From: Macrostomum lignano
Lineage: Eukaryota
Reading direction: 5' to 3'
DNA length: 64,000 bases
NCBI GenBank assembly: GCA_002269645.1
Contig: NIVC01000522.1
Span: forward strand, 186,001 to 250,000
Shown here: positions 44,198 to 60,292 of the stretch, piece after piece
How positions within the stretch are numbered: the first letter of the stretch is position 1
Layout of the letters: each line of letters starts with the position of its first letter
Position numbers and translations under genes: made by a program
Notes under the pieces: model-generated
What the model was told of the DNA's origin: nothing
Database searches by the model: none
What the model saw: the letters and a program-made list of their open reading frames with translations, nothing else

Positions 44198-44818
44198 AGT
44201 AGAAGGCATGAGGGGGCTTTTGGGACAAAATTTTTCACCTCCTCCATAATCCACCTAAATCCATCCATATTATCCCTGACAGAATCAGAAAAAAAGGGGG
44301 GTCGCACTCGCTCCGAAAACGTCCTCCATAATCCACCTAAATCCATCCATATTATCCCCGACAGAATCAGAAAAAAAGGGGGGTCGCACACGCTCACAAA
44401 ACGTCCTCCATAATCCCATTAAATCCATCCATATTATCCCTGACAGAATCAGAGCAGGTGTCCACTGATACCTGTTATGTTCACTGACACTGACATCCAC
44501 CCATAGCATCTTCGAAACAATCAGAAAATAATCTGCATTCTTCTCCCCATGGGGCCCACATTCAATTCGCAACGTGCTACCAGATCCCAAAGACTTTAAA
44601 TCATCAGCGCAGGGTCCTTACCCTTTGAAAAAAAAATTAATTTCTCAATAAAAATGTTTCCAGTTGTCTCTCCAGGTTCCTATTATACTCAGCCTCATCC
44701 ATTGTACAAATCCAAGTACCGATGCAAACTAGAATGCAGCGAATACATGAGAAAATATTGGCCCGACGTTGATATCAATGTCCCTAATATTAATCAAGCA
44801 CTTAAATCTCACTGGTTT
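44198..44818 (+). repeat. Left terminal inverted repeat (621 bp), containing ~2.6 copies of an 82-bp unit
   Basis: Reverse complement of 60128-60747. The internal unit starts at 44241, 44323 and 44405. Confidence 0.97.
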
Positions 44819-44896
44819 TATGAGTATGGAGTAACCTATGTAAAAGATTACGACAGCTACTATAACTTTGCAGAAATCATTAAGCAATTGCGTTAA
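44654..44896 (+). CDS. 80-aa hypothetical protein straddling the left TIR boundary
   Basis: AATAAAA-ATG context. The paralog at the right end shows a synonymous-biased divergence pattern. Confidence 0.7.
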   Translation: MFPVVSPGSYYTQPHPLYKSKYRCKLECSEYMRKYWPDVDINVPNINQALKSHWFYEYGVTYVKDYDSYYNFAEIIKQLR

Positions 44897-44914
44897 AAAA
44901 CATACTGAGTTCAT

Positions 44915-45139
44915 TTATTCGCAAGTATATTTACATAAAACAGGAGGAAATAAGGAGGAAAGAGCAGACAATGAGTGTGCAGGGCTATCCGGCTGAGAAT
45001 TTTCTTCCGCGACGTGCAAGCTTAGTTGCAAGGCTGGAAATGAATAAGGTAGAGAAAGAACAAGAAATTGTAGATCCTCGCACAATCCAAAATCGATATT
45101 CTTCGGATCCAGAATAATATTGATTTTCCTCCCGGTCAT
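44915..45139 (-). CDS. 74-aa hypothetical viral protein
   Basis: CACAAA-ATG start (MTGRKINIILDPKNIDFGLCEDLQFLVLSL...). The stop TAA is part of AATAAA. Converges on the TIR ORF. Confidence 0.4.
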   Translation of the reverse strand: MTGRKINIILDPKNIDFGLCEDLQFLVLSLPYSFPALQLSLHVAEENSQPDSPAHSLSALSSLFPPVLCKYTCE

Positions 45140-45153
45140 TTTGTGAACAGCAC

Positions 45154-45715
45154 TTTCCTGTATTGTCAAGAATTCCTGTATTGTCAGGAATTGGCACGAG
45201 TTTAAAAAAATCCTGGAGATCCAGGAAAGTGTTTAGAAGACTACTATGAGTAGCTTACATTGATAAAATCCTGGAAAAAAATTTAGTAAAAGACTTTCCT
45301 GTATTGTCAGGAATTCCTGTATTGTCAGGAATTGGCACGAGTTTAAAAAAATCCTGGAGATCCAGGAAAGTGTTTAGAAGACTACTATGAGTAGCTTACA
45401 TTGATAAAATCCTGGAAAAAATCCAGTAAAAGACTTTCCTGTATTGTCAGGAATTCCTGTATTGTCAGGAATTAGCACGAGTTTAAAAAAATCCTGGAGA
45501 TCCAGGAAAGTGTTTCGCAGACTACTATGAGTAGCTTACATTGATTAAATCCTGGAAAAAATCCAGTAAAAGACTTTCCTGTATTGTCAGGAATTCCTGT
45601 ATTGTCAGGAATTGGCACGAGTTTAAAAAAATCCTGAAAAAAATCCTGGAGATCCAGGAAAGTGTTTCGAAGACTACCATGAGTAGCTTACATTGATAAA
45701 ATCCTGGAAAAAAAT
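45154..45715. repeat. ~140-bp tandem repeat x4 inside the element
   Basis: TTTCCTGTATTGTC recurs at 45154, 45295, 45435 and 45575. Confidence 0.92.
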
Positions 45716-46075
45716 GGTTGATAACTAAGAAGTGAATCTTCATCAGCAAAAAATGATCGGCGTAGTTCGTCAAACACCATTTCGGTTCTCATGGCGTAGT
45801 TGCGATCCTGGGTCTCCATGGCCGCTCTTGAACGAATTCGCTGGTTCTCAACTTTTTCATTGAAGAAATTGTGGAGAACTTCTTGAATTCGCTCTGATGC
45901 CTGTTCGTCGGCATCTAATCCTTCAATAAGGCGACCGTGGAGATTTTCTAGGTCGGTCGGGTAGAACGTAATTTTTTGTGAACTAAAAACAAAGATTTAT
46001 TTAAAATAAGAGATTTTTCAATTCTTAACACAGGATAGAATTTCAGTAAGTAAAAAATGAATAAACTTACAACAT
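45688..46075 (-). CDS. Spliced 99-aa hypothetical viral protein (exon 1 46071-46075 ATGTT; exon 2 45688-45982)
   Basis: ATGTT|GTAAGT...TCTTTGTTTTTAG|T joins in phase 2 to a stop-free 98-codon frame: MF-SQKITFYPTDLENLHGRLIEGLDADEQASERIQEVLHNFF...SRILSM*. Confidence 0.7.
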
Positions 46076-58313: not shown

Positions 58314-58337
58314 ATATTTTTTTATGGGTGAAAAAAA

Positions 58338-59201
58338 ATGGAAGCTATAGCCGAAAGACTAAACAACATTGTTTCACACTCTAAGGAGAGCATTCCTATT
58401 ACAATAACTGGGCGAATTAATGACTCAAACGGGATATTTATTCAAAAATTAGAGCAGGCGATTCGCCTGGATCCAGGTGCTAATTACCATGTCTATCTTA
58501 ACGACTTCACTGGTTGGTCAAACGTTCCCAATGTGTCGGCAGCAAATAATAAGTTTTATTACAAATGGAAAGGTGCAGCAGCAGAACCTGTGGTATTCCC
58601 TGTGAGCACGCAAAGTGTGGATACCTACAATTACTTTCTAGAAAACGTATTTACTAAAAGAGGCCATTTTGAGACACCTGATGCGAGTAAGCCAGATAAA
58701 AAATTGTTCCCTGTCAAACTATCCTATGATCTCACTGTAATGAGAGTGGTCATGCAAGTTCACAAAGATGCGGAGGTTGAGTTTAAAGATGACACTTGGT
58801 ATAGGGAATTGGGATTCGTGAAGAAAGTTTATAAGGCAGAATCCACAGCGCGGACTGTCACTCAAGCGACGGGGGCCGTTAGCATGGCCCGGGAAAGTGT
58901 ACGCGGTTTGTTCTTAGCACCCAATATAGCAGACATTGTAAAGGGTTTGAATATTCTAATCAGAACTAATCTCAGTCTTGATTGGGTATTTAAGGGAAAG
59001 CGAACTAATATTTTGTACAACATCTCCAACTCTGTAGCTGGAGGACAGATGGTGGTAGAGAAACCAAATCCAGTGAAAAGAGTTGTATTGAGTAATAAGG
59101 AGATTTACGAGATTGTGCTACAGTTTGAGACTGAAGATGGGATGGGTGTTGATTTCAACGGTGAAGAGTTTGTATTGACGTTGATCATTGAGAGAATGTG
59201 A
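58338..59201 (+). CDS. Minor capsid protein (penton), 287 aa, intact
   Basis: SNVPNVSAANNKFYY and C-terminal IVLQFETEDGMGVDFNGEEFVLTLII are typical of Polinton mCP. Confidence 0.85.
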   Translation: MEAIAERLNNIVSHSKESIPITITGRINDSNGIFIQKLEQAIRLDPGANYHVYLNDFTGWSNVPNVSAANNKFYYKWKGAAAEPVVFPVSTQSVDTYNYFLENVFTKRGHFETPDASKPDKKLFPVKLSYDLTVMRVVMQVHKDAEVEFKDDTWYRELGFVKKVYKAESTARTVTQATGAVSMARESVRGLFLAPNIADIVKGLNILIRTNLSLDWVFKGKRTNILYNISNSVAGGQMVVEKPNPVKRVVLSNKEIYEIVLQFETEDGMGVDFNGEEFVLTLIIERM

Positions 59202-59499
59202 TGTTAAAATAACTAAATATTTTATTTCAGTTCTATTTCGAATTTTTAGTATATTTTTTCTAGTCATATTACTTATTAGTAGGCAACCTCACGCTTTTTG
59301 GACTGACCAAGCGTTATTTTTTTTCTAACCAGTATTTAGTGAAAGGATTGAAAACACAAAAGAAATCGGACACAAAAAGATAGTCTGTGCTCAGTCTATT
59401 GTTTTATTATGTCAAAAAGTTGGTTAACTTCGCAAGTATTCGCACATAACAAACACAAGTCTGTCATTAGTATTTCTCAGAAAAAAAAGCTTTTTTTTT

Positions 59500-60000
59500 G
59501 CACAGTTGAATTCGTGCGAATTCCTGTTAAGACAGGAAATGGCGCGAATCCAACTGCGCACTAGTCTTTCTCAGAAAAATGCTTTTTTTGCACAGTTGAA
59601 TTCGTGCGAATTCCTGTTATGCACAAGATTTTTACGAACGTTCGTAAAAATCATGTAACCACTGAGAGCCGCTTTATGCTGCACATGATTTTTACGAAAG
59701 TTCGTGAAAATCATGTAACCAGTGGGAATCGAACCATGCGGGGCAGACTGAGACCGGTTTTGGGCTTTTTTTTGCCCTCGTCAGTCAGTCATAGCCACGC
59801 GAGGTCGGCTCCACCTCTAGCCAGCTGAGTGGAACTGCTATTTATACGCCCTTGCACCAAGTCCTTGCCTTGCACATGGCGACATTTTCTAGTCCACCAT
59901 GTGAGGAATTCGCGCCATGTTCAAATAGCTTTACTATCAGTAAGCTATCGCTTACAAATGTAACTAATACGAGCCGCTATATGCTGCACATGATTTTGTC
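59500..60000. other. Non-coding palindrome/direct-repeat cluster of the element
   Basis: 34-bp palindromes at 59623-59656 (perfect 26-bp core) and 59683-59716. TTGAATTCGTGCGAATTCC occurs twice. TATA box on the minus strand at 59839-59846. Confidence 0.8.
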
Positions 60001-60055
60001 AGTATTTTTAGATCTTGCGTCTGCACTCTACAGGGTACAACCGTGTAGTTGGCTA

Positions 60056-60292
60056 CTACAACTGCCTTATAACTTCAGCAAAGTTATAATAGCTGTCAAA
60101 ATTGTTAATGACTACTCCGTGTTTTTCAAACCAGTGAGATTTAAGTGCTTGATTAATATTAGGGACATTGATATCAACGTCGGGCCAATATTTTCTCATG
60201 TATTCGCTGCATTCTAGTTTGCATCGGTACTTGGATTTGTACAATGGATGAGGCTGAGTATAATAGGAACCTGGAGAGACAACTGGAAACAT
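60056..60292 (-). CDS. 78-aa hypothetical protein straddling the right TIR boundary (paralog of 44654-44896)
   Basis: First 55 aa identical to the left copy; diverged but homologous C-terminus. Confidence 0.7.
   Translation of the reverse strand: MFPVVSPGSYYTQPHPLYKSKYRCKLECSEYMRKYWPDVDINVPNINQALKSHWFEKHGVVINNFDSYYNFAEVIRQL

What the first reader, a model, noticed from the sequence alone, without database searches (positions are those of the whole stretch)
44654..60292. Two paralogous small genes that start inside the TIRs and end in diverged unique sequence
Both ends encode MFPVVSPGSYYTQPHPLYKSKYRCKLECSEYMRKYWPDVDINVPNINQALKSHWF, identical because it lies inside the TIR. They then diverge: YEYGVTYVKDYDSYYNFAEIIKQLR (left) versus EKHGVVINNFDSYYNFAEVIRQL (right). 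In the DSYYNFAE-QL block the differences are synonymous (TAC/TAT, GCA/GCT, ATT/ATA, CAA/CAG) or conservative (I/V, K/R), which points to purifying selection on a real protein. Inference: TIR homogenisation keeps the N-termini identical while the C-termini evolve separately, giving a constant/variable two-allele cassette. Recombination between ends could swap the variable parts. I do not recognise this as a described Polinton feature.
Basis: partly seen in the sequence, partly recalled or inferred. Interest (0 to 1): 0.8.

Follow-up and report, generated by a model that had tools for sequence, protein, structure and literature searches.

The report
End-repeat gene shuffled in Polinton virus
A virus-like jumping element in this genome carries a small protein gene of unknown family, kept intact by selection, at both of its ends; the two copies differ at their tails likely because two old lineages of the element recombined and one end was only partly copied over the other, not because of a built-in switch.

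Summary
Observation confirmed. The window holds a 16.5-kb Polinton/adintovirus-type element (44198-60747, 6-bp target duplication). An 80/78-aa ORF starts inside each 621-bp TIR; 55 codons are identical, the tails differ. The gene is real: variants shared by 3+ insertions give pN/pS 0.22 (private ones 1.06), shared indels avoid it, and it has the start signature of the core genes. No homologue or fold match was found. The 'constant/variable cassette' reading fails: across other copies neither tail is tied to an end, the point where end identity stops moves from before the ATG to beyond 1.7 kb past it, and some elements carry the gene at one end only. The two tails are as diverged as two capsid lineages in this family (pS about 0.7, on a near-identical polymerase), and one tail is linked to the second capsid lineage. 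End identity is strongest at the tips and fades inward. Best reading: hybridisation of two lineages plus partial tip-inward end copying; here the right arm overwrote the left up to codon 55. It resembles cytomegalovirus IRS1/TRS1, but unfixed. Protein function and expression are untested.

The parts
44192..44197 (+). left copy of 6-bp target-site duplication
   Evidence: empty sites L141/L142 carry one copy
44198..44818 (+). left TIR (identical part), starts AGTAG, holds 2.6 copies of an 82-bp repeat and the first 55 codons of the small gene
44624..44653 (+). AT-rich leader ending in an A run before the ATG, same signature as the core genes
44654..44896 (+). left small gene, 80 aa; chimera: 5' part of the EKHG-type arm, 3' part of the common (lineage A) allele
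44810..44818 (+). inferred crossover interval: 9 shared bases (His-Trp-Phe codons) between two diverged blocks
45152..45713 (.). subterminal 140-bp tandem repeat, 3.9 copies
46345..46833 (-). PLA2-like gene
   Evidence: PF08398 E 3e-13
46863..47899 (+). rve integrase, in two frames in this copy
   Evidence: PF00665 E 2.9e-5
47916..48359 (+). protein X-like gene
   Evidence: PF05829 E 3.8e-7
48482..52341 (+). protein-primed DNA polymerase B, broken into several frames in this copy
   Evidence: PF03175 E 1.2e-9
52415..52747 (+). adenain-like protease (short ORF)
   Evidence: PF00770 E 0.003
54395..55161 (-). packaging ATPase, in two frames
   Evidence: PF04665 E 0.003
57030..58313 (+). major capsid protein, lineage A, in several frames
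   Evidence: PF21738 E 3e-4
58338..59201 (+). 287-aa ORF after the major capsid gene, read as minor capsid (penton) by position, lineage A
   Evidence: no Pfam hit; lineages
59620..60055 (-). 436-bp segment behind the right gene that lies at the integrase-side end in four other elements: sign of arm exchange
60056..60292 (-). right small gene, 78 aa, EKHG (lineage B-linked) tail
60128..60747 (-). right TIR (identical part)
60748..60753 (+). right copy of target-site duplication

Best explanation
The two ORFs are copies of one selected accessory gene that sits at the inner edge of the terminal inverted repeat of a Polinton family, and their different tails are likely old alleles from two lineages that recombined, after which copying from the tip inward likely made the ends identical only as far as codon 55. 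Shown: selection on the ORF, two deep alleles, no tie of allele to end, a floating boundary, identity fading inward, linkage of one tail to the second capsid lineage. Inferred: co-resident elements exchange arms during protein-primed replication outside the chromosome; the two ends pair (panhandle or template switch) and one is copied onto the other for a variable distance; in this copy the right arm overwrote the left. Guess (about 0.4): the protein is a host-interacting accessory factor made from a promoter inside the TIR, as end-proximal genes are in adenoviruses; its LxCxE motif is a weak lead only.
For: Selection: shared SNVs 22 synonymous / 17 non-synonymous, pN/pS 0.22, p 5e-6; private 9/33, 1.06 (91 intact of 102 copies, 58 insertions); only the annotated frame has no stop column and the lowest ratio of six frames; shared indels 19 in 180 bp upstream against 1, in frame, in the ORF; start signature in 13 of 588 ATGs, both small genes among them. 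Floating boundary: first end-to-end difference at +77, +110, +112, +142, +165, +206, +230 or none; homology past +1,695 in C276, C633, C975; stops before or just after the ATG in C70, C2709, C4162, C14 with target duplications. Polarity: 28 elements with target duplication, within/between difference ratio 0.26-0.49 up to +120 and 0.86-0.91 beyond; 6 same outside and different inside, 0 the reverse, 7 same throughout; Wilcoxon p 0.0024. Two lineages: capsid genes pS 0.71-0.78 in 3 of 5 elements compared, polymerase piece pS 0.01-0.04 in all 5; gene tails pS 0.64; tail blocks linked to B-type downstream DNA 31/34 vs 3/56 (last block), 26/34 vs 2/56, 26/34 vs 5/56, 15/34 vs 18/56 (first block). 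Direction: the window's shared tract is nearest to EKHG-type ends (2-6 differences), its left tail identical to common-allele ends. A private stop codon (C875) and a 9-base insertion (C87) sit at both ends of their elements.
Against: About half of the 28 elements differ along most of the TIR with no clean single boundary, so simple tip-inward copying does not explain all. Whether copying happened before or after integration was not separated. No unmixed lineage-B element was found. The sample leans to EKHG ends and to elements with the gene at both ends; in the 14 pairs taken from contig-ordered lists the gradient is weaker (0.10-0.44 against 0.69). Copies share ancestry, so p-values are optimistic. 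The adenovirus end-repair precedent is recalled; searches did not retrieve it.
Confidence: 0.72

Rival explanations
1. Host-chromosome gene conversion: the mosaic and unlike ends arise after integration by ectopic conversion among hundreds of dispersed copies and between the two TIRs of one copy.
For: 485 termini in the genome give many donors; many elements with perfect target duplications have ends that differ all along the TIR.
Against: Ectopic conversion has no evident reason to start at the tips; 6 to 0 polarity. The same chimeric junction recurs in an independent insertion, C2847, and recombinant alleles stay under selection, which points to propagation by replication.
Confidence: 0.15
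2. Maintained two-allele system: selection keeps both deep alleles, and elements with two different versions have an advantage (wider host-target range or escape from exclusion).
For: Two blocks keep deep alleles with many amino-acid changes (pN 0.19-0.24) while codons 1-8 and 31-50 are swept uniform; 6 of 14 list-picked elements differ in the tail block.
Against: Elements with identical copies, and with one copy, are common; the EKHG allele is a minority (44 of 341 pattern hits); neutral hybrid mosaicism predicts the same picture.
Confidence: 0.08
3. One reading: fixed left and right paralogues with a constant N-terminus and separately evolving C-termini.
For: True of this one copy; EKHG is more often at the capsid side.
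Against: Either tail occurs at either or both ends; boundary floats; N-terminus is dimorphic too.
Confidence: 0.03
4. Not a gene or an assembly artefact: a chance ORF in repeat DNA, with TIR identity produced by polishing.
For: No homologue, no fold match, model pLDDT 60.
Against: Frame-specific selection and indel avoidance; junction recurs on another contig.
Confidence: 0.02

Closest known systems
Human cytomegalovirus IRS1/TRS1 (PMC9319463, passages read)
   Same: Two genes whose 5' two-thirds lie in inverted repeats and are identical, with about 50% conserved C-terminal thirds; in squirrel-monkey CMV the homologues lie wholly in the repeats and are identical.
   Different: There the pair is position-fixed within the species and of known function; here every state (none, partial, unlike, identical copies) coexists in one genome and tails are not tied to an end. 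No sequence relation is claimed.
Alpha adintoviruses / Polintons (PMC8502044, passages and section 3.2; bioRxiv 2023.08.22.554363, passages)
   Same: pPolB, rve integrase, protease, ATPase, capsid, PLA2 and pX domains, TIRs of 100-1500 bp, 6-bp target duplication; module exchange between lineages is described.
   Different: A protein gene at the TIR edge with a floating boundary is not in the passages seen. Supplementary genome maps were not viewed and may show such ORFs. PLA2 and pX are separate ORFs here.
Endogenous mavirus-like elements (PMC8547959, passages)
   Same: TIR length varies 0.2-2.3 kb; truncated elements have TIRs that 'must have regenerated'.
   Different: Protist virophages; no allele-level analysis of a TIR gene in the passages seen.
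Adenovirus ITR repair through panhandle intermediates; poxvirus diploid ITR genes (recalled, not retrieved)
   Same: End-to-end copying in a linear genome with inverted ends; doubled terminal accessory genes.
   Different: Adenovirus ITRs are short and non-coding; the mechanism is inferred here, not shown.
Mosaicism in Polisuviricotina (bioRxiv 10.64898/2026.10.13.758929, abstract and passages)
   Same: Replication and capsid modules reassort, also below gene level.
   Different: That work compares distant groups; this is reassortment inside one family in one genome, with an end-directed gradient.

Membership tests
Polinton / Alpha adintovirus | protein-primed PolB (PF03175) | tested here: met
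   E 1.2e-9, above cut-off; broken in this copy
Polinton / Alpha adintovirus | rve integrase | tested here: met
   PF00665 E 2.9e-5 on a fragment, below curated cut-off
Polinton / Alpha adintovirus | capsid, ATPase and protease genes | tested here: met
   PF21738 3e-4, PF04665 0.003, PF00770 0.003, each weak and on fragments
Polinton / Alpha adintovirus | TIRs and 6-bp target duplication | tested here: met
Polinton / Alpha adintovirus | PLA2 and pX domains of the Alpha virion module | tested here: met
   PF08398 3e-13, PF05829 3.8e-7
Polinton / Alpha adintovirus | OTU domain on PolB | not tested
   N-terminal part is in pieces; not examined
IRS1/TRS1-type repeat-junction gene pair | identical 5' part inside inverted repeats, diverged homologous 3' part | tested here: met
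   55 identical codons, then pS 0.74 / pN 0.21
IRS1/TRS1-type repeat-junction gene pair | each version fixed to its own end | tested here: not met
IRS1/TRS1-type repeat-junction gene pair | different phenotypes of the two versions | not testable with these tools
   needs assays
Invertible constant/variable cassette (phase variation) | fixed crossover site | tested here: not met
   boundary differs among elements
Invertible constant/variable cassette (phase variation) | one expressed constant part with silent variable parts | tested here: not met
   both ends carry the same leader and 5' part
Adintovirus 'Oncoid' genes | LxCxE motif | tested here: met
   present with Leu in 71 of 79 copies; arises in 0.5% of shuffles
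Adintovirus 'Oncoid' genes | downstream CK2 site, CR1 motif or paired CxxC | tested here: not met
   read by eye from the sequence against the patterns; motif has basic neighbours and lies in a predicted helix
Adintovirus 'Oncoid' genes | binding to Rb-family pocket proteins | not testable with these tools
   no host Rb sequence in hand

The most novel reading that the evidence does not exclude
The TIR edge works as an allele-shuffling device: hybridising Polinton lineages keep deep alternative blocks of a host-interacting protein under balancing selection, and variable-length end copying makes single elements hemizygous, heterozygous or homozygous for it, a diploid-like locus on one viral genome and a living record of how IRS1/TRS1-type pairs arise.
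Probability: 0.15. Interest if true: 0.75.

Novelty: new variant of a known kind. Interest (0 to 1): 0.45.

Why it matters
Polintons are characterised mostly in silico, and how they keep their ends alike is inferred from relatives. This family, with 485 termini in one genome, gives a sequence-only readout: a polar conversion gradient and recombination between two capsid lineages on one polymerase, as expected if copies meet and replicate outside the chromosome. It also adds a selected, unclassified 80-aa gene that short-ORF filters would miss, and shows the intermediate states of a repeat-junction gene pair.

Tried and rejected
Homologue searches: none by word index for the protein or a 25-row alignment (only near lengths searched); one HMMER hit among 1.84 billion, a 1340-aa ankyrin-repeat protein whose score sums many weak repeats, rejected as likely chance; none in PDB sequences, viral contigs or metagenome contigs; Pfam only below cut-off (RNase T2 in 6 of 25 members, DUF6339 in 5); Atlas best score 0.81 with low recognition, a second Atlas query did not complete. 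Structure: three helices, pLDDT 60; no Foldseek match at E<=0.001; best Z 4.4, no fold assigned. Expression: no RNA holder on record; contigs of runs only guessed to be RNA cover the gene, but also non-coding parts and flanks, much like a run of unlisted kind laid as comparator: no verdict. Oligomer prediction was not run. The idea that every end carries the gene was rejected: of 30 termini picked by the terminal motif, 18 have the full ORF, 2 part, 10 none within 1.5 kb. Shared target hexamers of C1377 and C2068 are different sites. Earlier scan notes: nothing on this genome or sequence; eight word hits did not bear on it. Literature searches showed no description of this arrangement in a Polinton; 56 and 87 did not retrieve adenovirus end-repair papers; 85 did not confirm the recalled case of fungal linear plasmids with ORFs starting in TIRs.
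Full report
Observation. The two ORFs are there as described: 44654-44896 (+, 80 aa) and 60056-60292 (-, 78 aa). They lie in a 16,550-bp element, 44198-60747, with a CACACA target duplication that appears once at two empty homologous sites. Pfam finds PLA2, rve integrase, protein X, pPolB, protease, ATPase and double-jelly-roll capsid domains: a Polinton of the Alpha adintovirus type (PMC8502044, passages and section 3.2). 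Integrase, polymerase, ATPase and major capsid are in pieces in this copy; mutation and assembly error were not separated. The TIRs match over 621 aligned bases with one gap and no mismatch, ending after codon 55. Beyond it the reading frames stay homologous to the stop: pS 0.74, pN 0.21 over 23 codon pairs; 5 synonymous and 2 conservative changes in the last block.

Is it a gene? A tail motif has 353 exact hits in the genome. I gathered 102 copies; 90 run in frame from ATG through the tail motif, 91 were aligned by codon. After merging duplicates and both ends of an element into 58 insertions, single-base variants shared by three or more insertions are 22 synonymous and 17 non-synonymous (pN/pS 0.22, p 5e-6); private variants are 9 and 33 (1.06); Fisher p 0.0015. 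Both parts show it: 0.19 inside the window's TIR, 0.28 beyond. Multi-base codon changes are left out of these counts; with them the ratio was 0.38-0.53 before merging. Of six frames only this one has no stop column, and it has the lowest ratio; its antisense mirror gives 0.43 with 8 stop columns. Shared indels number 19 in 180 bp upstream and 1, in frame, in the ORF. An AT-rich leader with an A run marks 13 of 588 ATGs in the element: both small genes and mostly core-gene starts (thresholds set after viewing). This is selection while replicating and decay after insertion. No homologue or fold was found and expression could not be judged (see Tried and rejected).

Is it a left/right pair? No. 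In 29 end pairs, picked because both ends carry the gene, the EKHG tail is at the integrase side only in 4, the capsid side only in 5, both in 2, neither in 18 (three of the 29 have the same arm at both ends). Genome-wide patterns give 50 hits for the KSH block (44 followed by EK, 6 by HK) and 291 for the QRH block. The N-terminal half also has two deep alleles. The gene is not at every end: 18 of 30 termini chosen by the terminal motif (485 in all) have it whole, 2 in part, 10 not within 1.5 kb, and four elements with target duplications carry the whole gene at one end only. Of 19 EKHG ends followed inward, a gene-bearing partner was found for 8.

Where do the tails come from? The family has two capsid lineages: 79-84% amino-acid identity and pS 0.71-0.78 to the window's genes in 3 of 5 elements compared, while a polymerase piece differs by pS 0.01-0.04 in all 5. 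The two tail alleles differ by pS 0.64, the same depth. Linkage of gene blocks to B-type downstream DNA falls toward the tip: 31/34 against 3/56 for the last block, 15/34 against 18/56 for the first (12 duplicate contigs dropped). So the EKHG tail likely entered with the second capsid module. No unmixed lineage-B element was seen.

How are the ends made alike? For 28 elements with target duplications (C754 left out for its doubled end, C2606 as a duplicate) differences between the two ends, relative to random pairs, are 0.26-0.49 from -190 to +120 and 0.86-0.91 from +120 to the stop; 6 are alike outside and unlike inside, none the reverse, 7 alike throughout, the other 15 in neither class (Wilcoxon p 0.0024). 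In the 14 pairs from contig-ordered lists the ratios are 0.10-0.44 and 0.69. Private lesions are copied to both ends (C875 stop, C87 insertion), C754 has two gene starts 404 bp apart at one end, and C276, C633, C975 carry the same arm at both ends. In the window the shared tract is closest to EKHG-type ends and the left tail is identical to common-allele ends, so the right arm likely overwrote the left up to a 9-base shared island; the same junction recurs in insertion C2847. Copying during protein-primed replication, as recalled for adenovirus panhandles, fits best; conversion in the host chromosome is the main rival and was not excluded.

Function. Committed guess, about 0.4: a host-interacting accessory protein made from a TIR promoter. 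It is basic (pI 8.5), aromatic-rich, predicted as three helices with low confidence. LxCxE is present with Leu in 71 of 79 copies and in 0.5% of shuffles, but the other Oncoid motifs are missing, so Rb binding is perhaps 0.15. A terminal DNA-binding or virion role is not excluded.

Comparison and verdict. The layout matches cytomegalovirus IRS1/TRS1 (PMC9319463, passages), and TIR regeneration is reported for endogenous virophages (PMC8547959, passages). Searches showed no such gene pair in a Polinton; passages of PMC8363768, PMC11296320, PMC9863843 and bioRxiv 2023.10.06.561300, 2022.05.02.489867, 2023.08.22.554363 and 2026.10.13.758929 had none either; no supplements were viewed, and the adintovirus genome maps may bear on this. 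Verdict: a real unclassified gene and a well-documented floating TIR boundary, a new variant of a known kind; not a programmed cassette. Interest 0.45.

Noticed in passing
G000 C975 (L101/L102), C276 (L078/L079), C633 (L091/L092): Elements with the same arm at both ends (integrase arm twice, or capsid arm twice), giving inverted repeats of several kb; C276 and C633 have target duplications.
   Followed up: partly
G000 C33, C166, C687, C714, C875 integrase-side ends; C87 capsid-side end: Minor-capsid fragments sit behind the small gene at the integrase end, and a PLA2 piece at a capsid end: remnants of past longer end copying.
   Followed up: partly
L136:3933-4697 (-) and L138:4604-5032 (+): Ends lacking the whole small gene carry other ORFs (255 aa with the same start signature; 142 aa) without Pfam hits: alternative subterminal modules.
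   Followed up: partly
window 44624-58340, gene starts: Most genes share an AT-rich leader ending in an A run before ATG, recalling poxvirus-type start signals (recalled); could hint at a helper-virus or own transcription signal.
   Followed up: partly
G000 C32:1150965-1151833, C124:22982-23697, C289:58541-59180: Facing termini under 1 kb apart: possible miniature non-autonomous derivatives.
   Followed up: no
L190 (G000 C67): The 82-bp TIR repeat is expanded over at least 1.4 kb.
   Followed up: no
window 17686-18318 and 27763-28316: Long simple-repeat arrays in opposite orientation outside the element.
   Followed up: no
window 43997-44197 and 60748-60960: The element is inserted in a host repeat; the right flank matches many other places.
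   Followed up: partly
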